Assembly: GCA_051362555.1 (NCBI GenBank)
Contig: CM120641.1
Span: 43,778,401-43,842,400 of the forward strand
Length of the DNA: 64,000 nucleotides
Reading direction: 5' to 3'
Origin: Lingula anatina
Taxonomy: Eukaryota > Animalia > Brachiopoda
Shown: piece after piece, positions 1 through 52,908 of the stretch
Layout of the letters: the number at the start of each line of letters is the position of its first letter
How positions within the stretch are numbered: position 1 is the stretch's first letter
Notes under the pieces: model-generated
What the model was told of the DNA's origin: nothing
Databases searched by the model: none
What the model saw: the letters and a program-made list of their open reading frames with translations, nothing else
Made by a program: the position numbers and the translations under genes

Positions 1-60
1 ATTCCCATTGTAAATAACTTCAGGTTCTGTTACAGTTTTGTATGGATTATCTATTCTGAC

Positions 61-3000
61 TCATAAACCTCTTAGGAACCCTTCCATCCTTAAAAAGGAA
101 CTATTCTCATCATCAGAATAAAAGTCAGATTCAGAATCAGAATCTGCATATTTATACTGATCTCCAACAGTTACATCATCTTCCTGATTTACAACTGTGT
201 CTGTCACATTCTGCACTGCTACTGCCTTGTCATCTCCAACTCTCACATCATCCTCATCATCACTTGCAACTGTGACATCCTGATCTGCAACTGCCTTGTC
301 ATCTCCAACTGTCATATCATCATCATCATCACTTGCAACTGTGACTGTCACATCCTGATCTGTTTCAGCCTGATCCATTTGTGATTTTCTTTTCTTGTAA
401 TTAGATCTTCTACTTGGTGTCTGGGTGATAAAAAGTACAACTGCATTACTTCACAATTTGCCTTTAAAAAAAATATTATTCAGTTACACATATATTGGTT
501 GAGTTAAAATAAACTATAAGAAAAAAAGCTGTAAGATGGTACTTACCCACCAAAGAGTAATAGCCCCCATGGGATCAAAAGTATCTGGAGTGGCACCCTC
601 CAGTTTAATCTTCAAGAGATTGTTGAGGGTGGCATTACTCAGGCGCTGCCTTCTGTCTGTGAATAGTAGCTTCATATGAGAAAATGACACCTCACAGGAA
701 ACTGATGTGGGTGGAAGACTGTGAACAACATCAACCATCTTTAACACATTTGGGAAATCATTCCCCAATGTGTTGAACACCTTGTCCCATTGTAGGGTGG
801 AAATACTATCAAATCTGAAAGAAAAGTTTATACAGTTCTTCAACAACCACATCTGTATAAGTGTAATTGGATCAACATGTGCACAAGAAGTTCTACTTGT
901 CAAATCTAAAACAAAACAATAAGAATTCTTACATCAACTCTGTAAAAAATCATTTTGTGAATTAATTTGTTTTAGTAAAAGTACTTACGTCTTATAAATT
1001 ACTCCTTTGAGGAACCGCCACTCGGATATTGCTGTGGAAGCAGAAAACGGGAGATAACTACTAAATCTCTCCAAGACACATGGAATTTCTTTGTTGCCAA
1101 AACCTGAGAATAGTAATATTGCATTATAACTCTTTGGATTAAATTGAACAATTTAACACTATTGTTATAAATTCTGCAATATCGTATAGTATATCTGTAA
1201 AATCCAAAAGATCAGAAGAATTTTCAGAGGACAGTGAAATTTAAATTTTTAATAGAAAGACTAAAAAAACATATCAAGTATTGTTTCTTAAATATTCAGA
1301 AATATTGTTCAGTATAATCAAGGCATGCTAGTATAATTAATTCACACATTATTTTTAAATTAGTAATAAAACAAATTGAGCTGAATCAAAAAAAAAAAAT
1401 CATCAAATATGTAACTGAAAGCAAAAAATGTGAATTGGTAAAAGCAGCTGCATAACTTGACATGCAAAACTTTGAACAAACAAATATATAATATATAATG
1501 CTGACATGCAACAAGATAATTTCATCAAATATAAAACAGAAAAACTTAAAAATGCAACAAATAAAGTGAAAACTGAAAGAGAACAAAGTCAATAATCAAA
1601 GTTCCTAACTGGAAATGGCATTGGTGTCTTCCTTGTCTGGCCACTTCCTAAAATTGAAGACCTGCAGGTCTTTTACTATGGGATCCCCACTGCCAGCCAT
1701 GCGATCCGTAATAGCTTGGCACAAGTGTGCCAACATTTTGGCTCTGTACTCCATCTTCGGAGCAGTTCCCATCAGGGCAACACCTCTAAAAGTCCCTGTT
1801 GAAAGCATTTCATCGAGCTCTTCCAACTGCCTGCATAAAATCAGTAGATAGTAAATATCATGCAAGCTGACTTTTGCTTTTAAAATTAATTGATTAATTA
1901 AAAACACAGCAGACTGAAATGTTCTTAAAGCTTGAACATACCTGGTCTTTAAATCCACCAACTCATCAAGGGTCACTTCAACCCAAATACAAATGTCTGG
2001 TATGGTGACATCCTCTCTCTGGAGTTTGAGAGAAAGCTTGCTTAAGACTTCTAAGATTTCCTGAAAAATATGAAGCAAAAGGAAAAACAACTATTTGGAA
2101 GTTTGTTAGAGGACAATTTTAAAAGAGCTTTGGGACAAGCCATGATGGTTAATGAGTGCTTTTTAATGCCTGACTGGCTCTATTTAATGTAATTTACTCA
2201 TAGTATCAAATAGAATGTTAACTAAAGTACCTTCACCAAAAGTAAACATGCAACTACTTCCTTCGACTTCAAAAGCCTGCAGATGCCTTCAGCTTTACTG
2301 TTGTCTTGACTGCTGCTTGAGAGCTGTACATCTAAAGCAGAAAAAGATCTCACACATGCAGTGGTGGCCTTCCTCATGTGAGGTATCCATCTAAAAAAAA
2401 TCATTTTAACTTAAATACCAGAACATGTTAAACATAAATACTTTTAATTCTGTGTTAAATTATATAATTTATAAATTTACATAAATTTCTTTGGCCACTC
2501 TTCATAAGAAGAAAAAATTAATTAACTTAATTAAATTAAGGCCAACTTAAACAATTCATTTGACTGTTCCAAGAAGTAGTTTACCTAGTACCACCTGCTC
2601 TTGGTGGTATAACCCCATCAATTTGTAGCTCCTTGAAAACCCTTAACAACTGGGCCTTCTGTTTGCCGGATTTATGGTAAAAGTAATAGAGGCAGGTGAG
2701 CAGGTTTTGGGTCTAAAAGAGAGGAAACATGTAAAATGAAGCATGTTAAAAATGCTAATTGAAACAAATATTACATACTACTGATAGTTATATAAAGGAG
2801 GTAGTATCTGAGGTCACCTTATCGACAATCTTGTAGTTCTTCATAGCATCCTTCAGGGCCAATTCCAGACGGTGAGCAAGACAGTGCCATGTAAATATTT
2901 GAGGATGGTCTTTTTTCAACAATGCAGCAACTCCCTTTCGCTTTCCAATCATGTTGCTTGCTCCGTCTGACGTCAGTCCAATAATATTCTCTGATGGCAA

Positions 3001-4570
3001 GTTGTTTTCATTCAAGACGGACATTGCATGTTCAAATATATGTTGTGAGCAGGTGCTCACAGGAGTGCCTATATGCAAAAAATGTGTCACAACAACCCCC
3101 CTGTGGCTGCATCTGACGTACATCGATTCCTGCAAGAATAATTACATATTTATTTCTGATTACATCCTATTGATTGACAAGATAATCAAGATACGACTTA
3201 TATCTCTTTGCCTGTACATCTGACTGAATGTTTTATAATGCCATGAAAGCAACTTACAGTTGCCAAGTGTCTGAGAAAATCAAGTAACAAATGTTATATG
3301 AATACAAAAGGATTTTTAAAAAATAGTTCTGCATTTAGAAAACCTACATACCTGTTCTGTTCCACTCATATCTGTTGAGCCGTCCATCACAATACTATAA
3401 ACTTTGTTCTCAAATTTGTTTTTGGTACTGTTTCTCATATCATCAGCAATACATTCAACAAACTTTGTGCAGGAGGTTCTATTTAGGTGAGATGTCCCCA
3501 GTTTTGTCCCTTTGGCAATATCTAAATTGCAAAGCCATCTGAAAGATAGTCAAAGGTATATTTGTTAAATTGTTTTTATCCTCACAACAAATGAGAATAA
3601 AAGCTTAAAAATAAACCATAATTAAGAACATATAAGACTGCCACAATCACCTGAACAAAACTATATTAACAATGGATCATTTAAAAATTAACTTCACCTG
3701 TAATCACTGAGGGGCCGACCCATTTTGGCAACAAAATGGGCATTCCTAAATAAGACTTGATACTTCTGCAGTGCACTCTGGTGTAACACCTGCAGAGTCT
3801 TGGCAGCAGTGGACTCAGAGGAAGCAAGGCACTTTGGTTGTGAATTGGACAACGATGCCTGTACATGAGCTGATGACTTCTCATGGTCGTCCAAGGCAGA
3901 CTTACGAAAGTTGCTAGACCCTGAACATAAAAAGAAGATTTATAAGAATATTGTTTCATCAGGGATGAATGTGAATAACTTAGCACTAACTTTGCTGTGA
4001 CTGCTCCTATTTAAAAAAGATAAATTATGAAGAGGTGTAAACATAATTCACTGTGGCTGTTTCTTTAAGCAAATATTTTGTTTTGTCAACAATGAAAACG
4101 AATGCAAATAACTGTCAACAAACTTAACTGTTATTACCTTGCACAAAGGGATTGTTACTCTGACTTCCTTGAGAGCGACAATACGTGCATACCATCTTTC
4201 CTGATTCTAACTGTAACCACGGTCTTCCCTCCTGTGAAAAGAACCAACTTTTAACACCGTAAGCTTGGAACTACCGCTGTGAGTTGCCTAAAGTTGAAAG
4301 GAGATTTAAAGCTTCCCAAAATTACACCGAATTTGATTAACTACGACTTCAAACCAAAATAAATAAATAAATAAAAACACGTGTTCAGTTCAGTTCATAA
4401 ACCACCTCTTTCACTTATTTACTAGAAAATTGCAGAGCACTTACTTTCCATCTCTCCTCAAATTTCCTTTCTTTTCTATGTAATTCATATTTTTGGTGGG
4501 CTGAACTTAGCTTTGGGTTAACTTTCTTGCCGGGCCTCGCACCCTCCGACCACTTCAAGAATGCAGACAT
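61..4570 (-). CDS. hAT-superfamily transposase (ZNF862-like: TTF zinc finger, DUF4371/RNase-H-like DDE core, hAT dimerisation domain, acidic tail), 12 exons, ~770 aa
   Basis: Phase-consistent GT-AG exons: 4570-4445, 4231-4138, 3920-3698, 3538-3352, 3129-2818, 2712-2585, 2390-2231, 2060-1942, 1830-1610, 1103-989, 814-547, 420-61 (2313 nt, no internal stop). Motifs: RKFEERWK-EGRPWL..MVCTYC..HEKSSAH (TTF Zn finger), SIVMDGSTD, LTSDGASNM, WHCLAHRLEL, GGTRW, LPPTSVSCEVSFSHMK..RQRLS. Confidence 0.9.
130..378 (-). repeat. Coding tandem repeat (~3 units of ~69 bp) forming an acidic C-terminal tail
   Basis: Units encode VTVASDDDDDMTVGDDKAVADQD / VTVASDDEDDVRVGDDKAVAVQN / VTDTVVNQEDDVTVGDQYKYADS. Confidence 0.85.
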
Positions 4571-5387
4571 GTTTGACCGTAAATCATCCTCCAAGCAGTG
4601 GAGAGTTCCGTAGCTAGGGGAAAACCCCTACATTCGTTTGAAACGGATACTACGATTGGCTAGCGTACATTTGTATGTTATTTGTGACAAGGTGCGATCG
4701 ACTTTTACCTTTTGTTTAATTAGTAAATGAAAGAAAAACGCTATGGCTTGGATAGAAATTTATTTGTGAGGTACGTCGAGCGCTGACTGTAAATTCAACA
4801 TGGCGGCTCTTAAAAATCTTGCCGGTCCTTTGGACCGACCAAGTCCAATTTTTTACCGGTCCAGACAAATTTTGCCGGTCATGACCGATCGGACCGACAG
4901 TTTCAGCATGTCTGTAAGTTGAGGGTTCAAGTTATAAAAAATAAACTTGGACATTCTCAAACAAAAAAATGTGTGACCTTTCCAAGCCACTGCATTTATC
5001 ACTTGCATCTAAAAACATTTGTGGTTCACTGTTATATATGTACAGTACTCATCCAAAAACCCAGGACTGTCCTTCCTACAAAAGCACCTTCGAAATAATC
5101 GTAAATACCAAACTGTTCTACAAATAATGCAGCATGTCAGAGTAAAATCTCTAAATAGAACTGCCACATATTTTACATAATGACAAAATTACCTTGCTTG
5201 GAATAATAATAATGTGAGATATAATAAATCATGTGAATTAAAAGTGAAAATCTTATATCCCGTTCACACTACAATCTGAAATATCCTAATATTTGCAATG
5301 CAAATTACAGGTGAAAAATCTGATTCGGTTGTCTGGCCACACACAGCAAAGGGAAACTGAATTGTGCACTGAAAATCCAGATGGAGG

Positions 5388-5415
5388 TTCCGGTTTGAAG
5401 AATCGCGCATGCGCA
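5388..5415. promoter_or_regulatory. Candidate promoter: ETS core (TTCCGG, 5388-5393) next to an NRF1-type palindrome (CGCGCATGCGCA, 5404-5415)
   Basis: Near-consensus NRF1 site with retained CpGs in a CpG-poor background, next to an ETS core. No host gene starts here. Confidence 0.4.
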
Positions 5416-5707
5416 GAATCTATGAAAACCTTGGGCTATGTCATTGTAGACATGCTGATTCCTCTTCTTTGTTAGGCTTTTTTGGTGCTTATCCTACCTC
5501 CATATGTCAATCAAACAAGAAATTTCTTTGTGGGTCCACTGACCTGGCATGTTGCTTTTCTTTCCCGCGAGATTTGCTGGTGCATTCTCGATCAGCCTAA
5601 GCTGACCAGCCAAGGAATCAATACACGGTACTCATCACTAGAAATACTCCTTCCCAGCATCTACCCTTGACCAGGTCGTACCCCTCCTGGCCAGCAACAT
5701 GGTGTTC

Positions 5708-7991
5708 TTACTCAACATTGGGCCCCAGCCGGTCTAAATACAACCAACGCCCATTCTCCACAGTGATCTTGAGGATGTCTTCCCAGTCACACCCACGAAT
5801 TCTTGCCACGACTTCTGCTACTTTCCCCAGGAAAGCTGGAGTTGACTTATTCCTTGTTGGAAATCCGAAGTAGGGAGCATCAGTTTCCAGCAATAACCTT
5901 TGAGCAGGCATCCACTGTAACATCTCCATTGCTCTCCTACCCCTAGACATATCCATATACCTCCTAAAGATAGCAGTAGCTCCAAATTCGGTATTGGAAA
6001 AATATTGTACTCACTTCTCTGCCATCCTCCTGGACCCTGTGAAACATTGACAGTGAATTAATTGATCACTTTTCCCATTCTCAGCCAATCAGGGAATGTT
6101 TAAAACATGTCCCCAAACCAGGTTAGTAGCTGAGTCATCCTTGGGCCCTCGACAGTGGAGCACTAGTACCTGGTCTTCTCTTAGCAACGTAAGAGTTCTT
6201 TCCAGCACTTCACACTGCGCTTCCCACTGCCATGATGAGGTGGTGAAATCCACACCAATCTCACCCAGAACAGACACTTCCGGGTTGCTGGCTGCCTGTT
6301 CAAACTTTGTCCAGCCCTCTTGGTCAAACTCGTGTCTGGGGTGCCAACCCACCGACACCACGGCTCCCTCTGCCTTCAGAGAAGCCACCTCCTCAGCACT
6401 TGGATATGTTGCTGGGTCACAGAATATAACAGTAGCCCCGGGAACTGTTATTTCCTTGTCATCCACCTGTCTGGCCTCGATGACATCCTTCAACCCAGCT
6501 GTTGCTGATAATTCCAAGTGCTGGCGCACACGATCCACATGAGAATGACTGTCATATCCCACTGGAGGCTTAGGAATAGCCAGCTCTTCATCCTCTTTGT
6601 TGGAACATGTGCTCCTATACGCCTCCAGATCCGACGGCCATAACCGACGGCTATCAAGCTCAGCAAGGGTTTTCACAACAGCAGGGATCCAACTCTGAGG
6701 GCATACTCGCCTGATAACCCCAGGCCTTGGATAAATTTATCCACACCCTCCTTTCTACGCGGAGGAATCTCCTGATCCCTCTGCTCCATAAAATCACAGG
6801 CCTGGCATAACCTGTCCAACTTTGCCTGCATCCCAAACAGCCGAGTTGCGAGAAGGTGAAGAGCTCCAAATCTTCTTATCTCCATTCCCTTGCCGTCAAA
6901 CACCGGATGAAACACAGGAGGGATGTGTTTAGTCCATGCATGTTTCTCCGTTAAAACGCTATTACATCCAAACATTGGACACATGTTAGGACTCAGCGCA
7001 CTAGGTCCTGCGCCCACGGCACTGGTAACTCCCCCTTGACTGGAGCAACCACTCTGCCTTTGTCTCTTAGCGTGGGCCCATGTACCCAGCTCCTAGAGAC
7101 CACTCTTTGAAGGTTTAGTTCCAACCTTGCTCGATGAACTTCCCTTGGAGTCATCCCGTCTGCTCGATGAACTCCCCCTGGAGTCATCCCGTCTCGCCTT
7201 GGACACATCTTTACGCTTTCCTTGAAAGTGGGCAATCCCTGACTATGTGCCCCAGTTCAGAACATCTGAAACACCAATCCTCCTCAGACAGAGTTGGACA
7301 CTTTCGAGCCACATGCCCCACTTTTTTGCACCTGAAACACCTTTTCTCCTCATCCTTCTTGGGAACTTTAGAAGGTACCTTAGGAGGTGCTTCATGCCTT
7401 GTTGATTCCTTGGTTTTTTTAACAAACCCTGCCCGACTCTTAGGCCGTGGTTGGTAAGAGCCCTCAGTCTTAGCTGACTTTTCTCGACTCTGTAACGCTA
7501 CCAAACCACCTGGACTTGGTTTCTTAACAGCCTCCGCGTACGTTAGCTTTTCCCGCAAGTCCATCTCATTACCCCAGCTGGTAAGGGTAGCCCTCGGTGA
7601 CCTCCTCACCGGACTTGAAGGTGTATCCACCTCCATTGACTCAGTAGGAGTCCTCAGTATACTGTTTGATACTGACCCCGACTCCTCACTCTCCCCTCGC
7701 ACTACTTCCTCTAACCACAGTGCTCGGAGTCACTATATCCACCCTGTGCTCCAAAGTAGGGTCCTCTTGAAGTCTGACATCTCGATATGTGGCATGCCAC
7801 GCCTCTCGAGTAACCTTCCCTTTTCTGGGAGTGGCAACCCTGGCAACATGCTCACATACCCAACTGCAGGATTGAAAACCCACAGACAACAGGCCCTTAG
7901 CACAATCTTTGTGCCAAGCCTACGCATCTCTCTCCCTAGAGAGTGCCACCTGCTTCAGCAACAGTGCCTCAGCATCCCCCTGCAAGGCCAT
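5708..7991 (-). pseudogene. Disrupted intronless ORF: gag-like double CCHC zinc knuckle + Cys/His motif + C-terminal TatD-family nuclease
   Basis: Consecutive ORF pieces joined by frameshifts and stops: CFRCKKVGHVARKC and CFRCSELGHIVRDC (7211-7702); CPMFGC..KHAWTKHIP (6673-7017); TatD motifs GYDSHSHVDR, IFCDP, VGWHP, LGEIGVD, LVLHCRG (6089-6676), IHCQCFTG (~6030-6060, followed by a stop), RLLLETDAPYF..ITVENGRWLY (5708-5956). Putative ATG at 7991. Confidence 0.8.
7128..7193. repeat. 33-bp tandem duplication inside the zinc-knuckle/TatD ORF
   Basis: TGCTCGATGAACTTCCCTTGGAGTCATCCCGTC followed by TGCTCGATGAACTCCCCCTGGAGTCATCCCGTC; encodes DGMTPGGVHRA/DGMTPREVHRA. Confidence 0.9.
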
Positions 7992-8617
7992 TCTAACAAT
8001 ACTGGATTGAATAATATTGATGGGCTAACCACTACATGTTTTGTTGAACAAATTGTAAGTTCAAAATTTATATTTCTTAAAATAACTTTATGATCATGCA
8101 TGTTCTGTAACTACTTGACTAACTTTGATGCATTGATTTCCTCAAACATGTCATCTGACATTGTCTACTTTGGCACAGTTGTCCATTTACATTTCTTAAC
8201 ATTAACTTTTTTACATCAGGTGTATACATTGGGTGTAATGTCAATGTCACGAGTCATAATCATTGAAAACTTGTCCAAAATACAAAACTAATGCAATGAA
8301 TCATCAACTTCTAAAAGAGCAATGAGGTGTGACATGAGCATTAATATCTTTAAGTGTTAAAAGAAACTGTGCAGAAGGTTTCCTCGTTGAAGTGGTTGCA
8401 CAGCTTTAAATTAAGAGAAACCAAAGCCAATCATAATTAACATAACATCATATGTCGTCAGTATTTAACAATGAACATCACATGCTCAACAAAGTAACTC
8501 ACATATAAGTCTCAAGTACCTAATTATCTGTTATGTATACTATACACCATGCATGACCTACTGAGTATGACTGGGATAGACCCACAGATCCATTTGGCAT
8601 ATGTTTGTTCATGAAAA

Positions 8618-8940
8618 TGAGGGATCACCCTCCGATACGAAGCACTTGGGCGTGATATGTCCTGGTACGTTGCTGCAAATGCTCATGCTCCAAGTGCAGT
8701 TTCACACTGTGGTTGGAGTTTTTCACAGGTGGTAGCAGGCACTCGATATCGAAGGTTGCCTGATAAGGGCATTATCTATCTTCCTTGGGGATAACCAGAC
8801 CGTAATCCGCCAGTTTGTCAAAAATTGTTGGAGGTGTATTGTACGCTTTACCTGGGAATCACTATTCCACACTAGTTTCACATGTCCATTCGTGACGATG
8901 AAGATCACCTTTATGCTTGAACATTTTGTCGCCTTTTGGG
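8618..8940 (-). mobile_element. Polinton/Maverick (adintovirus-like) protein-primed DNA polymerase B fragment, degenerate
   Basis: Reading through stops and one frameshift: KGDKMFKHKGDLHRHEWTCETSVE**FPGKAYNTPPTIFDKLADYGLVIPKEDR*CPYQATFDIECLL...EHEH / SICSNVPGHITPKCFVSEGDP. This matches the Zn-finger + ExoI (FDIE) region of Polinton pPolB. Confidence 0.75.
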
Positions 8941-9300
8941 CTGGCTGAGAGGCAGGTATGGCATAAATGTGCAAAACGACAGTTCCTCATGCCACATCCC
9001 TGTCTTCCGTAGAAATTCAAGCGCACAGGACGGCCTGAGATGGGGTCTATTTTATTCTGTCTTGGCTGTCTTGTGCTCCTTTGATGTTGTGTAGGGGTTT
9101 GTCTGAGCGTAAAAAGTAGCTGCATCAGGAAGACGTTGTCTGTCCCCCATTGGAAACCCTGAACTGCCTGGAGCTTCTGATACTCTGCATCATATTTGAG
9201 CAGGGACGTCCAAGTAAAAGTCTGGGCCATACACGCTATTTTCATGACATATCCAATGTAGCTACTGTGTTTCTGACGGGGTCTCTTGTTGAGATGGACA
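8941..9300 (-). mobile_element. DIRS/tyrosine-recombinase retrotransposon ORF1 (gag-like) C-terminal fragment
   Basis: YIGYVMKIACMAQTFTWTSLLKYDAEYQKLQAVQGFQWGTDN...NFYGRQGCGMRNCRFAHLCHTC: the W..YD..R..Q....W block plus terminal Cys/His finger typical of DIRS/Ngaro-type ORF1. Confidence 0.65.
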
Positions 9301-9391
9301 TGTTCTCTTAATAACACTGAAAGTAACATATAAAAAGGTAAAATAACTGCACTTGGACCAAATCTCGTATATAGTTCAATCAAGTATAGTA

Positions 9392-10560
9392 CTAAGTAAC
9401 TTTCTTTACTTTGACACACTTTAAGTGGAACCACTCAATCTCACAATTGTCACTGTCAAAGGCAATCGTGGCATCCAACTCCTCTGGTCCATTGCAAACA
9501 CAAAATGACTGTGTTGAAGCTGTTTCTATAATCTTAGGTGATGAGTAATATTTACACAGCAATTCAGGGATTACTGCACTGGTGAAAAACTCCCTCGCCT
9601 TGCATACCATATTACTCTACATCAAACAGTTCCTTGTAATTCTTTCAATATGAATGTCTCCCTCTGTCCATACCACAAAATCGCAAAACTCAACACCACA
9701 CGTGTAGCTGTGTTTGGACCTGGAACATATACTGGTGGTGGCGTATGAGATGCAGCCTTCCTCCACTGAGGTATACGCATGAATTGGGATTCTTGGCATA
9801 TTCTTCAATGGTGTCGTGTCTTGCACAGAATGGGCACTTGATATCCAGAACACCAGCGCCACAGCAATCACACGATGTCTGTCCATCAGGAGATGCACCG
9901 ATAATGGGATATTGGTATCAGTTCCGAAACCCTAATGATTTAAAACAAAATTCTCCTGACTTTCCTCCAATAATTTCAAGTACTCAGTTCTAGCCTGCTT
10001 CTCATGTGTGCAACCCCATCTTGTAGCTGGTGATGTGAAAGATGAAGACTGAAGATAGCAAATGTTCTGAATGAGTGACCAGGATGGAGAATCTGGATTT
10101 GAGTGACACACCTGTCTCATTCAGAGATATCTATAGCCTGACACTTGTAATTCTGCCAGCTCTAAAGTTGTGCCACAGTTTGCTGTCAGCTTGATCCTTA
10201 GTAGCCTGCTCTACAGCACTGACTTCAGCCGATGTGACAGAGATATCTATAGCCTGACATTTGTCCAACAGATCTGGAAATGAGATATCACCAAAGTCCT
10301 TGTTATAGAGTTCAGTCAGTTGAGCTGGTAACTGTTCCCTCAGTGTGGTGGGGATGAAGTCAGTGCTCTGTCCAGGAACAGTACGTAAGATGACAGCTTT
10401 TGAATTGATGGTTTTCGGTTTAGAAAAAAGGTCCACAAAGCAGGTGGTACCGTCCGACTTGACCTTTTTCAAAGTGTTTTATCGCCCTCATCTGTCATGA
10501 GAATCTTCCACTGCGCTTCACTGGAGGAACACATAACAATTTAGGCATGATACCCTGCCT
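9392..10560 (-). pseudogene. YqaJ/lambda-exonuclease-like PD-(D/E)XK nuclease + PHD finger, transposon-derived, degenerate (copy 1)
   Basis: QADSKLWHNFRAGRIT, SPATRWGCTHEKQAR, IGASPDG..SCDCCGAGVLDIKCPF, HQYMFQVQTQL..CDFVVWT, then CVCNGPEE..DNCEIEWFHLKCV (PHD). Multiple frameshifts and stops. Confidence 0.8.
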
Positions 10561-10579
10561 GTGAAATACTCTTGCCTTA

Positions 10580-11872
10580 GAAGAAATATATATTCACAGT
10601 AAAAAATCTTTTCTAATTCTCTTGCAATGGAAAACATGAAGAGACCATACAAAAAAAAATTACAATAATCTAAATCTGACACTAACAGTTGCATTTGAAC
10701 TTGATAATAATACGAACAGTCCTTCTTTATCTGAAGTTCCCCATCTACAGTTTCAAGCCTGAATGCAAGATGTATCTTGAAGAGAGGAAGGACATCTGAT
10801 CTCCAAGAGACCCCAGCTTGCAGTATTCACAAAAGAAAGCCCATTAGGGCTGGCTCCAAACTCAGGGTAGTCTGGGTTGATTAATAGTCCACAGGCCTCC
10901 ACTTTAAATTCAACATTTAAGGGTGACATATACTTCACATAATCTTTCCTTGGCACATTTCCCTTCTTTATTCCCCATTCTGTTGGTGCACTATGAAAAA
11001 ACTGGGGATAACACACAGATTTCACAACAGAAATAGAAGGGTTAGTCAAATCAGTGTGCACAACAGAGCACAACTTTGACGCTGTGATGCGGCCGAGTCG
11101 ATACTATCTCCAGTAAAGTGACTTTGTCTGTTCAACTGTACTCTCTGCTACATAACCTGCCTGAGCCTTAGTTATAGATATAGCAATACCTATTGTACAT
11201 TGAAGAATGTCCTCTATATTAGCAAAGTCTGGGTTTCTGACTGTACTGAATTCCATGGGTCATTGTCCAAGGAGAGCTTTCGGCCTAAATTTGTGAGCAA
11301 ACTGGGGATTTATTGCCAATACACTTGCATTACTCACATGAACCTGCAGTTCCTCAAAACAGTTACTCATTTCACTCTTTGTAGGGGACGAAAAATCATT
11401 CTTCAGCACCACATTACTGTTCATGTCTTCCATTTTTTTTATTCTTTTTGTCCCAGACTGGAAGTCCATGTCCTGGACATGCTTGTATGGCTCCTTTAGA
11501 TTACTGGAGGATGAAGCCACAAAGTATGCAGGCACATCAGTAACTGACTTTTCCTTCCTGACTCTAGTCCAGGTTTCCAGTGCAAAAAGCATTGATAAAA
11601 ACTAAGAGATTTGAAAAATGCCTACTCTTGTGAATGTAAATAAAAACAACATCAAATTGATTTTACAAAGTTATAATCTGAGTTTATTCAAAATGTTTTA
11701 ATACCTTAAATTTCAACAAGTGAAGACCATTCACTTTTTTGTGTAGGATGTCTTTCGCCCATCCATCCTGGAACAGTTTATAAGCTTTCAGTGACTTATA
11801 GTTCCTCATTTCCTCCTTAGAGCATGGTGACTTTTGAAAGATCAGAAAGTGAATTATGTCTACAATGTTCAC
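10580..11872 (-). pseudogene. YqaJ/lambda-exonuclease-like nuclease, degenerate (copy 2, divergent from copy 1)
   Basis: N-terminal DIIHFLIFQKSPCSKEEMRNYKSLKAYKLFQDGW, LFALETWTRVR..SVTDVPAYF, YRLGRITASKL, APTEWG, CGLLINPDYPEFGASPNG..GLLEIRCP, YYYQVQMQL..YCNF. Intron-like segment at ~11600-11705. Confidence 0.8.
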
Positions 11873-12100
11873 CTCTGGTCATGAGTCTTTGTTCCTGCTG
11901 TTGTGACTTTATTCACAATTATAGTGACTGGCTGTCTTTCCTTGGATATAACACCTCCTTTGAGAGCAGCCTTTGCTGGTATAGTTGCATCTTTATGCTT
12001 TTGTGTATCATAGTAAGTATTAACTGATGGTAAAATAACCTGCTCTTCTACCTTGCTCCCAGGCGTCATTATGTCATCATTAACAAAATCTACTTATGTC

Positions 12101-12240
12101 CTACTCAACTTTCAGCCAATTCTCTTCTATTTTCAACCTTTTCTTTTCCAGTGCTAACCGTTCCTCCTCTATTATAACCAAATGATTTTCTGTTTTGGCT
12201 TTCTCTGCCATCCAGCAAGATCTGTCCCCAACTCTTTTAG
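12101..12240 (-). pseudogene. Short coiled-coil coding fragment, resembling the C-terminus of MSANTD4/Harbinger Myb-like accessory proteins
   Basis: Translates KRVGDRSCWMAEKAKTENHLVIIEEERLALEKKRLKIEENWLKVE*. Only the ERL.LEK.RL.IEE pattern supports the call. Confidence 0.3.
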
Positions 12241-14315
12241 CCTTGACTTGGGTAGGACGTGCTTGTTTGGAGGCAGGCTGTTATACTCCCTCCTCTTTGT
12301 GCATTGAAGAATTCATTCTTTGTTTTTTGTTTTTTTTTTTGTTTTTTTTTTTGTTTTTTTTTCATTCCAAATACAAAGCCAGAAGATATGTCAGACACTT
12401 CAACCATGGACGTTTTTGCCCCCCCAATTTCCCACTCCCCCCTGACACACACTTTCAATTTCCATCAATATGCATATGATTTTTAGAAGTATAAGTAAAG
12501 ACAATTAGTCAGTCTTTTATTATATAATATTCAGATCACCTTAATGTCAAGGTCCTCTCATGATTACATCAAAAGTTGCAACATCAGTGTTATCTGACAT
12601 TGTTGTTGTCTGACTGATAAGGGTTTTCTTTTCTCTGATTGGTCAGGAATAGTGATGAAGTCTTTGGTCAATATTATGATTAGTGATTATGTCACAGGTC
12701 AACATTTACAGACCTTGGATTAACTGATATAAAATCATAGTCTATGCCAATATATAATATATGCAAAGTATATTGCACTTAGTTTATCAATATGTTACCT
12801 TCATGTTAACAATGCAAAGCACTAGTTGGTTCATCACTTGAACTCCATAAACAACACTAATAATAATAGAATTTAGCTGTTGATAGCTTAGTGATACCTA
12901 GCTTTGGGCAGAACCTCAGCAGCAAGAATATCACATCTCAGATACACTTTTCAGCTAATGTTGCTTTGAAATAATCTTAAATCTGGTGAAAATTTAGTTA
13001 TAATGTCTAATTTTTAATTATTAATATAGATGTAAGTTAAAGCTGTATATTAAAACAAGCGAGTTTTGGTTTGGTCCATTAGACAAAAATGTGTGGGTTA
13101 TGATATTTATTTTGTACCAAAAAAATAAAGAAAATAAAAACACTATTATAATCATCTGAACTGTCCCTTTTATTCTGTTAAATATAGGGCAGTGACATAT
13201 GTCACATTGCATAAATGTCATTTTTATCACATCTATGATAATGGATAACACTTCCACAAAAAGTATCGGAATAGAAACTACTACTTGAAGGCACCTTCAC
13301 CCACAACTACGAATGTACAAACAACAGAACTGTGCCAATGTAGAAACAAACAAAATGTACAAAGAAAAGTGAAAAAAAGAAAAGAAAAAAGCACATCATC
13401 TCCATACTTTTATACAAAAGTACTGGTCCTCTAATTCTTTGTAGTATATTAAACAAAAATATAACGGATATATTATTAAGTATCTACACTTGAAAACAAA
13501 TATTACAGTAGTTACAAATAAGTAGTATAGGCAGAACACTTGTAGACTTAACACAAATCCCATATCCATAACAAAAAAATATTTATTTGTTAAAATTCTC
13601 TTGAACAATATTGTGTATATTTGTTTTAATTGTCTAAATGCATGTGGTGCAGTGCTTAAATATAATAAACTTAGTGACATACTATTAATAAAACAAAAAA
13701 TAGAGATTTTAAGTGCATATTAAACTTATAATACAACATGAGATTTTTTAAATTATCATTTAATCAGACAAGTTATGAGATTATGAAAAAAGAAACGTGT
13801 CTGGCATAGATAAAAATTTCAGGCCCCATGATAAGCTCTTGTAATACCCTGCATTATTATATTGCTTCAAAATGCTCTGAGATTTTTAAAGAATTATTAT
13901 TGCTACAATACATCACAACTCTCCTGAATACTGTTACTGAGGTGTGTTTTCCAAAAATTCTGAAACCAGATATTCCTCTGCATATATTCTTATAATGGAC
14001 CCCTAAATAAGTAAAACTGCTATTCACCGGTATATGGGCAATAACCCCATAACTCTCAATTGTCCTAGAATCCAAATCACCAAATTCTGGCTTTTTACAT
14101 ACTTGCTTTAAGATCAGGAATTAAGTCTTGATTTAAAAAAAAAATGTACAAAGAATGTAAAGTAAATTGTAGATAAAGACAAATGCACCGTATGAGAGAT
14201 GCACCATTTCACAGTTGCATTTGTCTACGAAAGAGCCCTGACCTCTTCTTCACTAATATGTGATCAATCTGTATAAGACTTCAGTTGAGTTGTAAGTCCA
14301 CAGTAAATTTCTGTT

Positions 14316-17300
14316 CTACAGCTGCAAATCCCTGGCACCAGATGAAGGCTTGCACACGTAGAATGTCGGCTCCCCCTTGTATTTGCTCTGGGATAAAGAG
14401 ATAGTGGGTAGTACACATGTAGGATTGTTAACAGATAGATTTGATTACAAAAGGCGAGACATGATTCAAATTCCCAATTCTAAACATCTTTGCATACTTT
14501 TAGTTCTGACGAATAACTATTATCATGACATTTATCCAACATTACCTACAAAGCTATTGTGAGAAATAATTCAAATTTAATGTATGCTGTGCAACATAAA
14601 GGCCACAGAAAGAGGTGATTTTAATTCTCATTTCTAATTATCTTTGCACACTCAAGCTCAAACTGATATGGAAATTTATATTATATAATCATATTATAAA
14701 CCTTAACTAAATTTTTATCTCCTGATACCATTAGACTAAAATGGGTTTTGATTCACATTTTATCTGTTCCATACAGTATACAAGGCTACTGAAAGAATGA
14801 AAGTGATACAATTTTAATTCTCATTTCTACGCATACCTTTATATTCTGCATTGTTTTCTCTGCTGCATCAGACTTGACCAAGGTCACTGTGCAGCCTCCA
14901 AACCCACCCCCGGTCATCCGGGAACCATACACACCGTCCACTTCCAAGGCTGCTTCAACCAGCTGGTCCAGTTCTGGACATGAGACCTCATAATCATCTC
15001 TAAAATGTAAAACGTTGTGAGAAAACATTATTACAGACAAATGATAATAAACCACTGAAGAAGTAATTTGGTACATTTTTAGATATTTACATTATTTTCT
15101 TTTTACTTTTTGATTCCTGATTTAAAAACAAGTACAGTGTGTGTGTGTATTTCAGCCAATTATCAGACAAATCGGGGGACAAAACAAAGTATGAAACAAT
15201 GAGATATAAATAGATAAAATGTGATAAAAAACGATGCAACTAATCAAAAGAAAATACCAGTTTTGTGGAAAGTATCATCAGGGTTACCAATACACCAAAT
15301 ACGATAGAATTCTGGTGAAGTTGCTAAAACAGCTAACCTCAGAGAAATGTGACTTTCAACCATCAGCTTGCCGAACAAAACAAAGTCTCCATTCTCCAAT
15401 GCCTGGGCGCCCTCTTCAGTTCTGAGGTTCTCTTGGATCACGTGTCTGGCTCTACGGAAGACCACTTTGTCAAGCTCGTTCTTTGCAGCTATAAAGCATA
15501 ATTATTAGAAATACTAGTAGCATGCTAAGTAAATTTTTGTCTCTTTATTCAGATTTGTCAAGAAATAATCCGTAACATTACTGAGATTAATTTCCATTTA
15601 AAGTATTTTCAATAACATTTTCCCTCGAGCCACAACTTCATACTTTTCCTGTGGTTAGTAATGACACAGGTCATGATGTAACTGAGATATCTAACCGTTT
15701 AAAGTATTTCCAAAAAGTTGAAATTTTCCAAGGCCACAGCTTATTAAAAGGATCAAATTAAATTATTTGACTGGTTTTCTAACTCGGATATCACACAAAA
15801 CATATTATCCTTTTCAATATTTCTTCTTTTCAATGTTGTTTGGTTCAGTGGACTAGTGCTATTTCCTTTTTGGTAACCAAATATCTTGTAATTATCAGCC
15901 AAATCATTTATCTTGAGTTAAGGCAGTTACCATTTAGTAATGAGGTGACGTCAAGAATGTATTACCACTTCAGATGTTATCATGACTAAATGTTACACCA
16001 GTTGACTTAGTGATAATGAGTTGATAATTGAAAATGATGAAATTATTGGCAATAAATGAAAAATATCACCTTGAATGATTCACAAACACAAATCACAAAC
16101 TAATTTTTCAATCAAAAAATGTATATCTCCAGTTTTTGATCCTCACATTCAAGATCTTCCATGGTGGCATCCCTGAGGCTCTTCTTCCCCATCTTCTCAG
16201 CTGCTACTCCACACTGAGTTTTCCTTGTGGAGTACTCGCTGCCTGTCAGCTCATGGCGAACATTGGAATTAGTCACCAGGACAGTCAGGTTGGAATCTTT
16301 TAGCGGAACCAACTTTGACTCCAAATGTCTTCATGCAGGAGAGACAAAAAATATTTTATTATGCATGGAGGTGTTTGGGAGAAAAAATGATTGAAATTGA
16401 TTTCAAAGGATATTACATTGAGTATATAGTATCATATCCTGTAGATATTTCTCATATATATTCAAAACATGCATGTGTCAAATGTTTAGTACACACTCAC
16501 TAAGCTTGAAGCTATTAGCAGATATTTCTTATTATAATATTCAAGGTCAATCAATTTTGGGTCACATAATATCAAACAACATAGTATTTTAATACGATTG
16601 ACTTTAAACATGTAATACATTAAACATGTAACACGCATACCTACAATCTATCAACAAAGCATGCCCTTCCTTGGCCATCATAGACACAAACTGATCCATG
16701 ATTCCACAGGGAAGGCCTGCAAAATCATTCTCAGCCTTCTGACATGCTAAGGCTTTGGCTTTTTGGTCCATGTGGTTTGTGGAGGGGGAGAGCTGGTCAA
16801 GGAAAATGTATGTGGAGACCAGGAGAGCTGCAGAGCTGGACACTCCTCCACCCAGAGGCACTGAGCTGTGGATTATGGCATCAAATCCACTGAGATTTCC
16901 TGTAAAAATATCGTTTTAGTTGTTTTTAGTTCTCAGTTGCAATTAATTTTAAATATATATATATATTCTCTACTGAATGTTAAGACTCCATTAATTAATT
17001 TACTACTAGTTTCTTTGAGACCAAATACTTTGACTTCAGTAGCTGAGATTTCCCCACGATATAAAATTTAATTTAAACACTATTACAACTATGTACATAT
17101 ATGATCATTGTAAGTTGATAAGAAGCTGTTCAGTATATTGTTTTACATGCAATATCTTTAATATGAAAGTACAGTCACTTCACCAAAGGTAGGTATAGTA
17201 TATCATGCAGGTGCTTAACTATATAAATACACATTAAGAATAATAGCAACCTTCCTAGCCTATCACGTACAGATTTAAATATAGTTCAATCAATTAATCC

Positions 17301-20300
17301 AACAAATCTATTCACTTTCTGCATAATAAAATGCAGGAGTGGAAGCAGATTGCACTTCTTTGCCAATAAATTATATTCAGATATAACCAGTTTTTATTTC
17401 ATAAAATTACAAAATGATTTTAAAAATTCTAACAAAACTAAGGTTGGTTTTATTTCTGCAATATGAAGGGGAGGGAATAATAAACAGAACTTTACCTTTA
17501 AAATGGGATATAACTCCTTTGACATAATTTGCCCATAAAGGTTTCCCCCTCTGTAGTGGGTTGTCCTTTGTGGGCACAGGGAATGATATAGACTTTGGCT
17601 CATCTGCATGTTCTTGTGTGGTCACAATATTTATAATGCCTTTCTCAGTTTTGCTGCCAACAAATAAGGTAACCAGAGGTAAGGCCTAAAAAGAAGTTGT
17701 GAATAAATAAATGTTAATATTAATAATTATGAGATGGCTTAAATGTTATTTTTACTTAAATTTGCTTTTAATTAACAGTAATTTTATTTACAGATACATA
17801 AAAAGCCAGCGTCAATTCCCACTTACACATATAAACACTTCAACTAGCTTCTTATGCAACCAAAATAAAATTGACATTCCAAGTCATAAACAAAATATCT
17901 AGTTCAGCCATAAAATAGCTTTAAAGCTGCACCTTCACATTTCTGGGCGTAAATTGACCCATTTATCTGTTCCTCCAGTTCATAAAGGTCAGCGAAATGA
18001 TGAGTACTGCACGCCCATTGCATAAGTATTGCTCTTACTCCAATGTACTAGTAAATGTATGTGCCCACAACTGCATTTCTATTCAAATGAGACTACTGAG
18101 GGATATTTATAGTGCAGAGGACAACCAGAATATATATATATATCTCCATTCTACTATCATTTTACGGGAAATATGAAATAATGTCCTTTTGTATTTCTCT
18201 AGGCAATACAATATGAAACAATATGTTGGTGTTTGTTTGAGTTTCGCTGCAAACATTTGACTTAAGATGCATCTTTAATTTATTTGTTGCCATGCTTTAC
18301 AAGTTTTTTTTTTCTAAATGTTTTAAATCTTTCTTTTTTCACAAGGAATAAAGATCACATTCTATTTAGGCAGCATGTTTTGTATCATGTGGCACATGTA
18401 TATTTAGTTCTCTAATGCAAGGTAATGCATACTTCATAAAAAGATTAATGGTACGTCTGCCTTTTTATAGACTGGTAAAGTCGGTTATGTTAGAGCCATA
18501 CGTATAATTCATTAATTTACTATACAGTATACATGCTTTCCTACATGTGTATTATAACCACCCTGGGTTTCAGTGGCTACTCTATAGCGGATGTCAGGGT
18601 CAATTCCTATTAAAACTTTTGTTCTTTGTAAAAAATAAAACTATTGTTCTACGTACATAGATCCAGCTCTGCAGGGACTCTAGCTGAATGCAATCAGATT
18701 AACAGATTAACAAACCCCTTCTTGTTTCCAACTTACTTGTCTAATCAGGGATCGATGACAGAGAAGAAATGTCAAAGTTTCAAGCCAAAAAGGGGGGGGG
18801 GGGTATATTTAAGGAGGAATTAAAGAAAGTGATAAAATCAATGAAGGATGCGAAGGCAACTGCACTAGATGAACTACCAGCAGAAGCGCTTAAAAGCCCT
18901 TGATGAGGATTATATTGATGTTAACATTATAACCTATTTGTGTAACACCATCTACAGCAGTGGAATAATCCTAACTGAAATGAAACACTCAATATTTGTG
19001 ACTCTTGAAGAAACTAAAGCCCAACATTGTACTGAATTAAGAACAATAATTTTAATGAGTTATAATATTAAAAGTTTTTATTGAAAGTAATACAGCAAAG
19101 AATAGCAGACAAAATTAAATCTAAGAAAATTAACTATTTTTGACCACATCATAAGAAAAGATTATTTGCAGTGGTTGCTACTGAAAGGAAAGTTAAATTG
19201 GAAAAGACCAAGAACAACATGGATGGACAACATAAAAGAATGGACTTATCAAAAATAATAATAATAATAATAATAATATTTATTTCTTAAAACCGCACTA
19301 CACTAGCGTCTCAGTGCTGTTTACAGGTAAAATTATTAGGATTACAACTTATTATATATATAATAAAAGCTAAGGTTAAAAAAAAAAAACAATTAAAATA
19401 ATTAAAACTTTTTTCTGATAAAATGAGAAGATATTAATTAAAATACTGTGCAAATAAGAATGTTTTTAAATCTTTTTTAAAAACCTCAACACTGTCAATA
19501 GTCCGAATGTGTGAGGGTAATTGATTCCATAAAATTGGTGCTGAAATTGAAAATGCCCTGTGGCCGTAGGTTTTGGTTGTTTTTTATTATCATTTCTGAT
19601 AAAACAAGGAGTGGAGGTGGATCTGGTAGACCTGGTGAGACTGGGTGTACTTGGATGTAGCATCGAGTTAAAATATGAGGGGCATTCACCTCTAGTGAAT
19701 TTAAAAACAAACAACAGTAATTTAAAAACAATTCTCTGTCGTACAGGAAGCCAATATAGTTCGAATAAAATGGGTGAAATGTTTGATCTGAGAGGGATTT
19801 TGGTCAGTAGTCGTGCTGCAGCATTTTGGACAGATTGCAATTTTTCAATTTGATAGGTAGGAAGACCATACAGTAAACTGTTTCCGTAGTCAAGATGTGA
19901 AGTTATAAAGGCATGGACAAGCCTCTCCATTTGACTTTTATCAAGGATGTGGGATAGTTTGGAAATTTTTTTAAGACCATAGAAAGCGGCTTTGCATTTT
20001 TTGCTGATGTCGGCAGCCATATCGCACCTATTATCAAAAATTACTCCAAGGTTTTTAACCTCATCTTTTACCGTGACTGTACTGTTTCCAATTTCTAATA
20101 GTTCTAGTTTTTCCGCATCCTTAGAAAAACGAAATATAGTGAAAGTATACTAATGACACAAGATATTGTACACAGGCATGGCGATCCTCGACAGCCAACC
20201 TGCTGATCATGAGAGTCATATGGAGAATGGATGGCACCCAATGATGATGACATTATATTAATATATTAAAAAATAAATATAGCTAAAACATATAATACCA

Positions 20301-31200: not shown

Positions 31201-32923
31201 GCAGAACAAAGGATGGCCAATCACTTTATCTGTTATCAAGGTAATGTGGCTCTGAGGCCTATTACCCAAAATAATTAAACAACTGAAATAATTCAGACTA
31301 AAACATTAACTTCATTTCAGGATAAATCCACAGTAGTCCACTAAATAAAGAAGTAACTAGACTTTGTAACCAAAGATACAGTTTTGACCTAACATTAATC
31401 AGTTAAATCCAGTATGATCAAACATTACAAATTTTTTTATGAAAACTGGTGAAAAACTAATGTTACATGTAGTTTAGAGCTCTTTTGATAAGCAGACCAG
31501 ATATTAAAAAACTTGATCATTAATGCATTGCTGCTCACCTTATTGTCAGTGTCACACCCAAAACACAATCACAACTGGCACAATCTTGTCAAAGCGACCT
31601 TGGGTGTGGCTGTCATGAATAAGATGATACAATGAGTGCTTGAAAGTTCACAGAAGCAATAATTGCATCATTTATGAGGAAGTTTTGTTGATAAGACTCC
31701 AAACTCTTGAAAGCAGTGTAATAAACATGACATATATAAATAACCAGTAACAAACAATTTGAATGAAAAACATATATCGTATTGATTGGGTCAAAATATT
31801 TTTCATTTTTAGTGCAAATATAAAGATGGCCGCCTCTTCCCTCCTATAGCAGAAATGCTGCGATGCATGGATACTGATCTTCCCTCCCTGTCCTCCATCA
31901 TCAAACATGCACGTGAAAACAAGGACGAGGTGGATTTGAACAAGAAACCTCCCCATGCAGTCCTTCCAGAGGATGGATACAAAGACGTCCCTATACAGAC
32001 ACCAGAAAGCAGGTGCTGAAATGTTTTTATTTGCAGACATATTGTTTCTTTTTTAATTTATTTAATCATTTTTTTTTTTTTGGTTATTTAGTAATTTAAT
32101 TTATCAATATACTTTTAATTTTAGTTTTTAAAAGTTTTTAATTGAGAACACTTGAAGTGGGATTTTGTACCTGTGTCTTAATCATTGCAGACTGCCATAA
32201 CAGGTTTTGCTGTAATAAAGCAAAAGACATAAAAGGATGGGACACTTTGAATGTTAAGAGGATATTTCTTGTTTATTTATTTATTTATTTATTTATTTTT
32301 AATTTATTTTTATATTTATTTATTTATTTTATTATTATTTTTGTATTTTTTTTTTTTGCGGGAGACTCTGAATGGTAAGAGTTCAAATGTATTTATACAA
32401 GCTACTTTTTATGTATTACAGAGCCAGGTACAGAGTGCAATATGTGGGAAAGACTCATGTAGGTCAGGTATGTACTCTTGAATCTAAAAACCTCAGTCAC
32501 ATTCAGTAAAGATAATCAACATCTTTTCAAGCAGCTGAAGGTTATATATTATACCATTAGGATTAAGATTATTTTCAGGATAATCAGTTATTGAATACAT
32601 ATGTTTATGCATAAATTTGCAATTCATTGAGACAACTATTTATTTAGTTAGTTAATTTTTGCTTTTGCATTAATTTTTTTTCATTTATTTACTTTCAGAG
32701 ATAAGATAATTAATGTTCATCATATTTTATTGATTGATTGCTGAAAATTTTAATTATTATTGTATTTTTCACATTTCATTATTTGCTGAATGTCTGATGT
32801 ACAATAACATATTTAATACCTATTTTATCAGGATGGCAGTATGTGCCAGATAGAAAATGCAGTGGCTACTGTACTTAGCAATAATCCTGACCACAGGGTA
32901 AGAACTTTAATTAATTAATTAAT

Positions 32924-36333: not shown

Positions 36334-37009
36334 CAACTCTGGAAACACTAAAGAGGATACAGTAGTGACATTGCCATATTGGATCTTGTCTCTTTATCCA
36401 TATGCTCACACCTAGTGGCCAAAGACCCCAATCTCATACAGCTATAATCTTTTGTTTTGTTTTGTGGAAAGTGGAATCGATATGTTTCTATTTTGGCAAT
36501 GGAAGGGATGTGTTCCCATAGATGCTAGTCTTATAGGTAGAATTCTCAGTTTTTGGAAGTGGACGGAATAGAATGTGTGTTGCCACAGATCTCGCATTCT
36601 TAAATATTGACATTTCAGTTTACAGGAAGTGTAAACAATATGTTGCCATGGATACCAGTCTCTTGTAGACTGAGATATGAGTAGACATTTCAGTCCTTAG
36701 AAAGTGAAAGTGATATGGCCTGAAACCAACTAAATCTCCACATTTAACATTTGAAGAACTTTTTGAAGTTTGTCAACTAGAGTTATGCCAAAGATATTAA
36801 TTTTGTATTTAACCAGAAAGAAGTGATATATCACAGTCTCTTGGAAAAATTATTAGTTTATAGGAGATGGAAATATCAATAATAGAATTAAGATTATGCC
36901 AAAGGTACTTGCAATTAAGCCGAAAGGAAACAAAGTTGTTCAACCTGTTCAACCCATTCATAGATATTGGGACAAAAAATACCAATTTTGGTTATCAAAT
37001 TAGTGCTCC

Positions 37010-45016: not shown

Positions 45017-45063
<47 letters not shown>

Positions 45064-48332: not shown

Positions 48333-48373
<41 letters not shown>

Positions 48374-49410: not shown

Positions 49411-49455
<45 letters not shown>

Positions 49456-52857: not shown

Positions 52858-52908
<51 letters not shown>

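What the first reader, a model, noticed from the sequence alone, without database searches (positions are those of the whole stretch)
5388..12480. Orientation-locked patchwork of unrelated TE/virus coding fragments behind its own promoter: candidate unistrand piRNA cluster / TE trap
Seen: in ~7 kb, at least five recognisable fragments (zinc-knuckle-TatD ORF, Polinton pPolB, DIRS ORF1, two divergent YqaJ nucleases) plus a weaker coiled-coil piece. All are on the minus strand, all decayed, with no recognisable TIRs or LTRs, and several abut with almost no spacer (e.g. DIRS/pPolB at ~8940, PHD/DIRS at ~9300-9390, YqaJ/YqaJ at ~10570). If six insertions were independent, a shared orientation has probability 2x(1/2)^6, about 0.03. 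Intronic TEs elsewhere in this window occur in both orientations. An NRF1 palindrome plus ETS core sits at the left edge with no host gene to serve. Established: unistrand piRNA clusters such as Drosophila flamenco accumulate TE fragments antisense to a single long transcript. Inference: a plus-strand transcript from ~5.4 kb would be antisense to every fragment and could act as a genomic immune memory against retro-, DNA and virus-like elements. Alternatives are fragment capture by a Helitron/Pack-type element, or chance.
Basis: partly seen in the sequence, partly recalled or inferred. Interest (0 to 1): 0.85.

Follow-up and report, generated by a model that had tools for sequence, protein, structure and literature searches.

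The report
Antisense transposon archive beside GALK1
About 7 kb of broken coding pieces from several unrelated transposons all face one way and RNA matching them is read mainly from the opposite strand, so the locus is likely a piRNA cluster, a known kind of genome defence memory, here in what is probably a brachiopod.

Summary
About 80% of 5388-12480 is decayed mobile-element coding sequence, all on the minus strand: Myb/SANT piece, near-full zinc-knuckle-TatD ORF, DIRS ORF1 end, two unrelated YqaJ nucleases, plus a pPolB-like and a coiled-coil piece that no tool confirmed. An intact-looking hAT transposase just left (61-4451) faces the same way. The junctions around the DIRS piece are bridged by contigs at about single-copy depth (one junction in 4 of 4 DNA runs, the other in 4 of 4 as well), which argues against a multi-copy composite element; other parts show local duplications and deletions. 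Corrections: the NRF1 site lies in a multi-copy repeat end, so any promoter is likely borrowed from a transposon; the start site is not mapped. Best reading: a unistrand, flamenco-like piRNA cluster (about 65%); small RNAs were not available, so piRNA production is untested. Known kind, apparently undescribed in brachiopods.

The parts
61..4914 (-). hAT (ZNF862/C17orf113-type) element, right end at about 4914; 12-exon transposase 4451 to 61 with an open GT-AG chain of about 730 codons; same orientation as the block; possibly a recent, polymorphic insertion
   Evidence: Pfam Dimer_Tnp_hAT, zf-C17orf113, DUF659; open chain; multi-copy end with loose ends at 4914
5257..5429 (+). multi-copy repeat end holding the ETS-like core (5388) and NRF1-type palindrome (5405); other copies continue past 5429 into a start-codon-like context on the plus strand; candidate borrowed promoter (inferred); left bound approximate
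   Evidence: depth 3.6-11x GALK1 and loose ends at 5429 in X2, X5, X6; motif positions
5430..5585 (-). 5' piece of a Myb/SANT ORF (PIF/Harbinger-group accessory protein, inferred), cut at 5585 where other copies continue into a second NRF1-like motif
   Evidence: Pfam Myb_DNA-bind_4 E 5e-4; loose ends at 5585 in X2, X6
5711..7992 (-). near full-length zinc-knuckle-TatD ORF, decayed; repeated family of unknown class
   Evidence: loose end at 7992 in RNA run X16 continues into the paralogue's N-terminus
7993..8609 (.). unassigned AT-rich segment
   Evidence: no Pfam hit in six frames
8610..8927 (-). piece resembling the N-terminal part of a Polinton/Maverick protein-primed DNA polymerase, broken; recalled resemblance only
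   Evidence: read from the translation; no Pfam hit; not confirmed by a tool
8940..9315 (-). C-terminal part of a DIRS-group ORF1 (Gag-like, Cys/His finger)
   Evidence: 608 relatives; relatives lie upstream of RT in 5 of 5 and tyrosine recombinase in 3 of 5 loci scanned
9416..10480 (-). YqaJ-A: YqaJ nuclease plus PHD-like end, N-terminus missing (ISL2EU-type second ORF, inferred)
   Evidence: Pfam YqaJ; tblastn to P0002/P0003 residues 272-598
10531..11899 (-). YqaJ-B: most of a second, unrelated YqaJ protein; a GT-starting 21% GC gap of about 106 nt replaces 42 residues, i.e. intron sequence likely retained
12104..12280 (-). coiled-coil piece, possibly the C-terminus of a Myb/SANT transposon protein; weak
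   Evidence: Atlas lead 0.89 NAM-associated; no homologue for a neighbouring frame
5131..13110 (+). low-level plus-strand RNA across the block, antisense to every coding piece, no GT-AG joints listed; fades near 13.1 kb where ATTAAA 13049 and AATAAA 13124/13133 lie and the GALK1 3' end converges
9544..11245 (.). segment likely tandemly duplicated in other haplotypes or copies
   Evidence: back-joints to 9544 from 10648 (X1, X6) and 11217 (X5; same junction letters in RNA run X16); depth about 2-3x inside and 0.5-1x on both sides

Best explanation
The block is a run of decayed coding pieces of unrelated transposons, all on the minus strand, with matching RNA read mainly from the plus strand, and it likely works as a unistrand piRNA cluster whose long antisense transcript would be cut into piRNAs against the parent elements. 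Steps: (1) elements insert into a transcribed region (inferred; the intact same-orientation hAT looks like a recent case); (2) only antisense insertions persist, and deletions and local duplications prune them to packed coding pieces (pieces and structural variants shown; selection inferred); (3) one plus-strand RNA, likely started in a transposon end near 5.3-5.4 kb or further left, runs to about 13.1 kb (RNA strand shown; start and continuity inferred); (4) the RNA would feed PIWI proteins, since the siRNA Argonaute and DICER2 are reported absent in brachiopods (literature; untested here).
For: Strand: first mates on minus (RNA plus) carry 97%, 90% and 88% of depth over 5131-13110 in X12, X15, X16, winning 14 of 14, 11 of 12 covered and 13 of 14 bins; GALK1 (minus-strand gene) shows the opposite 93-100%. 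RNA also covers the bins that look single-copy in DNA (9.0-9.4, 11.2-11.6, 12.0-12.5 kb). Single contigs bridge the 8940 and 9300-9400 junctions in 4 of 4 DNA runs from 3 studies at 0.9-1.0x GALK1 depth. 81% coding-piece density against 0 TE-family hits in 95 ORFs in the rest of the window. Parent families are present in the genome as related copies (P0001-P0003; raised depth). Same anatomy as flamenco-like clusters (PMC10643416) and a slug cluster (PMC11615739); molluscan clusters are enriched for hAT, Kolobok and Polinton elements (PMC6128900).
Against: No small-RNA data, so the defining product is untested. Depth is low (roughly 60-90 reads per stranded run in the block, estimated). Few reads are 99% identical (24 of 473, 12 of 156, 6 of 422, 14 of 140 over the whole laid stretch) and some continue into sequence absent here (7992), so part of the signal comes from other alleles or other loci. 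No start or end pile-up was found (table 6). Plus-strand poly(A)-signal depletion is not significant (1 seen, 2.8 expected, P 0.22). About 8 kb is small beside 227-1085 kb flamenco-like loci, and no Gypsy piece was found. Antisense bias also arises in any transcription unit by selection against sense insertions (recalled).
Confidence: 0.65

Rival explanations
1. A transposon graveyard inside an ordinary non-coding or read-through transcript: sense insertions were purged because they bring splice and poly(A) signals, antisense ones were tolerated, and no piRNAs are made.
For: Explains orientation and plus-strand RNA equally well. The start site is unmapped and the hAT may be absent in the RNA donors (no RNA depth at 1-2850 in 4 of 4 runs), so read-through from a gene left of the window is possible.
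Against: Does not explain 81% density of coding pieces from at least five families in 7 kb against none detected in 51 kb of neighbouring gene-containing DNA, nor the many local duplications and deletions. Read-through transcripts can themselves be piRNA precursors (PMC11615739).
Confidence: 0.2
2. The locus is a silent relic whose shared orientation is chance or old, and the antisense reads come from related pieces in other clusters.
For: Most reads are 90-99% identical and some run into sequence missing here; much of the block has 2-5x DNA depth.
Against: Plus-strand depth also lies on the single-copy-looking bins and the unassigned right flank; GALK1 3' reads differ as much from the window, so allelic divergence explains the identities. 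A silent locus does not predict a continuous one-strand signal that ends where GALK1 begins.
Confidence: 0.08
3. A composite mobile element (Helitron or Pack-type) that captured gene pieces in its own direction and is present in several copies.
For: Co-oriented captured pieces are typical of such elements (recalled); large parts of the block have raised depth, and YqaJ-A and YqaJ-B pieces are joined in a second arrangement in 3 of 4 DNA runs.
Against: Three bins inside the block stay at 0.5-1.0x in all 4 runs, including the bridged DIRS junctions; no Helitron hairpin-CTRR end in 4915-13300 on either strand; no bounding inverted repeat; RNA is antisense, not sense, to the cargo.
Confidence: 0.07

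Closest known systems
flamenco and flamenco-like unistrand piRNA clusters of Drosophila (PMC10643416)
   Same: Packed transposon pieces opposite to one transcript; transposon-trap logic; ongoing structural change.
   Different: There the bias is Gypsy-specific and loci are 227-1085 kb, spliced, with a host promoter; here the content is DNA-transposon accessory ORFs, DIRS, a TatD element and a likely Polinton piece, about 8 kb in view, no splicing seen, promoter likely transposon-derived.
Molluscan piRNA clusters (slug Arion, PMC11615739; Lymnaea and Crassostrea, PMC6128900)
   Same: Lophotrochozoan; one-strand production from densely packed antisense pieces (slug); enrichment for hAT, Kolobok and Polinton elements (snail, oyster).
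   Different: Those are defined by small-RNA data; this one is called from anatomy and long RNA only, and probably in a brachiopod.
Mammalian piC-DoG clusters (PMC11615739)
   Same: Antisense transposon pieces next to a host gene, read by one long transcript.
   Different: piC-DoGs are read through from the upstream gene; here the neighbour GALK1 converges on the block from the other side, so it cannot supply the plus-strand RNA; a gene left of the window is not excluded.
ISL2EU and PIF/Harbinger transposons (PMC4482050)
   Same: Second ORFs with YqaJ (ISL2EU) or Myb/SANT (Harbinger group) domains match four pieces.
   Different: No DDE transposase or paired ends remain, so family assignment of the pieces is inferred.

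Membership tests
unistrand piRNA cluster | dense transposon fragments | tested here: met
   81% of the block against 0 of 95 ORFs elsewhere right of 12.6 kb
unistrand piRNA cluster | fragments share one orientation | tested here: met
   all recognised pieces on minus, none on plus
unistrand piRNA cluster | long RNA from one strand, antisense to the fragments | tested here: met
   88-97% plus-strand in 3 of 3 stranded runs; continuity as one molecule not shown
unistrand piRNA cluster | 24-32 nt, 1U-biased, phased, PIWI-bound small RNAs | not testable with these tools
   no small-RNA run was listed
unistrand piRNA cluster | discrete promoter and start site | tested here: inconclusive
   no pile-up of read ends; NRF1-type site lies in a multi-copy repeat end
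unistrand piRNA cluster | spliced, polyadenylated precursor | tested here: inconclusive
   present in a PolyA library; no GT-AG joint listed in the block at this depth
flamenco proper (Gypsy/ERV-specific somatic cluster) | antisense Gypsy enrichment | tested here: not met
   no RT, integrase or Gypsy domain in six frames
piC-DoG | read-through from a same-strand upstream gene | tested here: inconclusive
   GALK1 is convergent; DNA left of the window not available
Helitron or Pack-type composite element | whole block multi-copy with defined ends | tested here: not met
   single-copy-level bins and bridged junctions, no hairpin-CTRR end, no bounding inverted repeat
DIRS-group retrotransposon (piece 8940-9315) | ORF1 followed by RT/RNase H and tyrosine recombinase | tested here: met
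   met in relatives: RT 5 of 5, recombinase 3 of 5 loci scanned; those genes are absent from the window
ISL2EU second ORF (YqaJ-A, YqaJ-B) | YqaJ ORF paired with THAP-DDE transposase inside TIRs | tested here: inconclusive
   YqaJ met; partner ORF and ends absent
Polinton/Maverick pPolB (piece 8610-8927) | homology to protein-primed family B polymerase | tested here: inconclusive
   no Pfam hit; resemblance recalled only

The most novel reading that the evidence does not exclude
A compact, self-assembled piRNA cluster in a brachiopod: a transposon end supplies a plus-facing NRF1 promoter (its own gene and the neighbouring minus-facing promoter both cut away), the locus keeps mainly the interior coding parts of DNA transposons, a DIRS element and a virus-like Polinton in antisense, and an intact hAT has just been trapped in the same orientation and still segregates, so cluster birth, pruning and trapping could be followed in a living population.
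Probability: 0.25. Interest if true: 0.7.

Novelty: new member of a known kind. Interest (0 to 1): 0.5.

Why it matters
Unistrand clusters are well studied in flies and seen in molluscs, but no brachiopod cluster came up in my searches. If confirmed, this locus shows that the antisense trap design also targets DNA transposons and virus-like elements in a lineage reported to lack the siRNA branch, and that such clusters can be called from raw sequence by orientation alone. Its small size, visible structural variants and possibly polymorphic hAT make the trap model directly testable: does a new insertion add piRNAs and silence its family?

Tried and rejected
No whole genome is held, so junction copy number rests on sequencing-run contigs, whose summed depth is only a rough guide. 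No RNA holder was listed by the index; raw-read runs were laid instead. Viral-contig scans for the DIRS alignment and the TatD paralogue found nothing. Rfam: 0 matches in 1-15000. Repeat scans found no LTR or TIR pair bounding the block. Helitron end scan: 0. Poly(A)-signal depletion not significant. Homologue search for the coiled-coil region found none (the frame searched was not the coiled-coil frame). The idea that pieces were captured as spliced cDNA was rejected for YqaJ-B, which keeps intron-like sequence, and the hAT keeps all introns. The 10988-12450 RNA joint is not an intron (ends CA..CA, 4-base overlap) and reads as a genomic deletion. Assembly error as the cause of the stops was rejected. 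Absence of X1 contigs over 2500-4235 is a hole without a bridging contig and proves nothing about the hAT. Earlier scan findings: nothing. The pPolB-like piece remains without tool confirmation.
Full report
Setting. The window is from an animal; the closest named relatives of two pieces are Lingula anatina proteins, so the host is probably a lingulid brachiopod. No whole genome is held. GALK1 lies on the minus strand from about 24 kb to 13 kb (Pfam GHMP kinase exons; CT..AC intron joints), so its 3' end points at the block.

Observation. A six-frame Pfam scan of 5201-12600, with stops read as X, gave TatD, two zinc knuckles, YqaJ in three frames and a weak Myb/SANT hit, all on the minus strand; the six plus-strand pieces gave nothing. 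The zinc-knuckle-TatD ORF matches an 800-aa paralogue (P0001) at 78-87% from 8021 to 5711 with 4 stops and 3 frame changes. YqaJ-B matches a 617-aa YqaJ-PHD paralogue at 53-64% from 11899 to 10531, YqaJ-A at 25-32% from 10403 to 9416; the two have no DNA similarity beyond 11 nt. The piece at 8940-9315 has 608 relatives; of 33 metagenome loci holding relatives I listed long ORFs for 7 and scanned 12 ORFs of 5: reverse transcriptase follows in 5 of 5 and a tyrosine recombinase in 3 of 5, two of them below cut-off. That confirms a DIRS-group ORF1. The pPolB label (8610-8927) is a recalled resemblance that no tool confirmed; the coiled coil has only a sub-threshold lead. Recognised pieces, these two included, cover 81% of the interval. 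Run X1 matches the window with 0 differences across several lesion-bearing stretches, so the decay is real. Of 111 ORFs of 70 aa or more outside the block I scanned 107, leaving out four plus-strand frames over the hAT; none of the 95 right of 12.6 kb hit a transposon family, so the claim that other transposons in the window lie both ways could not be checked.

RNA. I laid 4 of 9 raw RNA runs, 6-25% of each, on 1-17100 at 90% likeness. X12, X15 and X16 are stranded: over GALK1, first mates lie on plus in 93%, 100% and 100% of depth. Over 5131-13110 the sign flips: first mates on minus in 97%, 90% and 88%, winning 14 of 14, 11 of 12 covered and 13 of 14 bins. The RNA is thus plus-strand and antisense to every piece, at mean depth 0.9-1.7 against 0.5-1.3 over the GALK1 bins (which include introns). 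X18 is unstranded (50% on GALK1, 60% in the block). The signal fades near 13.1 kb, where plus-strand poly(A) signals cluster (13049, 13124, 13133) and GALK1 reads begin; depletion of such signals inside the block is not significant (P 0.22). No GT-AG joint and no start pile-up were listed. Against: depth is low; over the whole laid stretch only 24 of 473, 12 of 156, 6 of 422 and 14 of 140 reads were 99% identical; four X16 reads leave the window at 7992 into the paralogue's N-terminus, so some reads come from other alleles or loci. GALK1 3' reads differ by a similar amount, which points to high allelic diversity.

DNA. I laid 4 of 10 DNA holders (3 studies) on 2500-15500 at 85%. Single contigs span 8695-9470 (X1), 8903-9498 (X2), 8635-9498 (X5) and 8680-9645 (X6), bridging both junctions of the DIRS piece in 4 of 4 runs; that bin has 0.9-1.0x the GALK1 depth, and 11180-11613 and 12048-12481 have 0.5-0.9x. 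Other bins are mostly 2-7x. Summed depth is not a true copy number, but a block that moved as one unit could not drop to single level in three places. Back-joints to 9544 from 10648 (X1, X6) and 11217 (X5) bound a region of 2-3x depth, which reads as a tandem duplication of about 9544-11245; further deletion joints occur in TatD and YqaJ-B. The locus is therefore structurally fluid. No bounding inverted repeat or Helitron end was found.

Promoter. The NRF1-type palindrome at 5405 is unique in the window, but lies in a stretch of 3.6-11x depth; contigs of X2, X5 and X6 leave the window at 5429 into a shared sequence with a start-codon-like context on the plus strand. I infer a transposon end with a plus-facing promoter whose gene is gone. 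Copies of the adjacent Myb piece continue past 5585 into a second NRF1-like motif that this locus lacks. This fits selection for one-way antisense transcription but is anecdotal. The start site is not mapped: the four RNA runs have no depth at 1-2850, which may mean silence or absence of the hAT in those animals (X2 holds an exact hAT contig at about half depth), and a few plus-strand reads lie at 3.4-4.6 kb.

How the pieces arrived. YqaJ-B has a GT-starting, 21% GC gap of about 106 nt in place of 42 residues, and the hAT has all its introns, so insertion as DNA followed by deletion is more likely than capture of spliced RNA.

Mechanism and rivals. Best reading (0.65): a unistrand piRNA cluster. 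Shown: density, orientation, antisense RNA, single-level junctions, structural turnover. Inferred: one continuous precursor, selection for antisense, piRNA output. Rivals: tolerated antisense debris in a plain non-coding or read-through RNA (0.2); silent relic with reads from elsewhere (0.08); composite element (0.07).

Literature (passages found by term search only; no whole texts or supplements read). PMC10643416: flamenco-like loci are 227-1085 kb outside the melanogaster subgroup, promoter-driven, spliced, with Gypsy-specific antisense bias, and the trap model. PMC11615739: a top slug cluster makes piRNAs from one strand over densely packed opposite-strand pieces; mammalian piC-DoGs. PMC6128900: snail clusters enriched for Kolobok and hAT, oyster clusters for Polinton among others. 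PMC4482050: ISL2EU second ORF has YqaJ, Harbinger-group second ORFs have Myb/SANT. PMC11114477: piRNA pathway kept in almost all Lophotrochozoa; siRNA Argonaute and DICER2 not found in Brachiopoda. Searches for a brachiopod cluster (1 paper; 23 papers, 12 listed; 5 papers) showed none by title and abstract start; a search for a zinc-knuckle-TatD element listed none containing TatD. Unseen supplements and closed journals could hold cluster lists.

Verdict. Real feature, largely as described; likely a new member of a known kind, with an unusual DNA-transposon-rich content and a likely borrowed promoter. Interest 0.5.

Noticed in passing
window 61-4914: Intact-looking 12-exon hAT transposase (about 730 codons), co-oriented with the block, no RNA over most of it; may be a recent polymorphic insertion.
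   Followed up: partly
window 5711-7992: The zinc-knuckle plus TatD DNase ORF belongs to a repeated family with an intact 800-aa paralogue; what kind of mobile element carries it was not found in tools or papers.
   Followed up: partly
window 8862-9434: The DIRS ORF1 end reads in frame into the pPolB-like piece as one 190-codon open stretch; probably chance (1 in 3).
   Followed up: no
window 19466-20149: 227-codon minus-strand ORF in a GALK1 intron resembling the C-terminal end of a LINE reverse-transcriptase protein (recalled; no Pfam hit).
   Followed up: no
window 37000-40300: Nested direct repeats of 225-300 nt at 93-98% identity with about 1420-nt spacing.
   Followed up: no
window 55050-55309: 260-bp element with 50-nt inverted arms at 98%, MITE-like.
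   Followed up: no
window 44000-60300: Plus-strand gene with LRR and EF-hand exons; weak TMEM127-like hit on minus at 31616-31843.
   Followed up: no
window 12541-13680: Plus-strand RNA and the GALK1 3' end appear to converge or overlap near 13.1 kb.
   Followed up: partly
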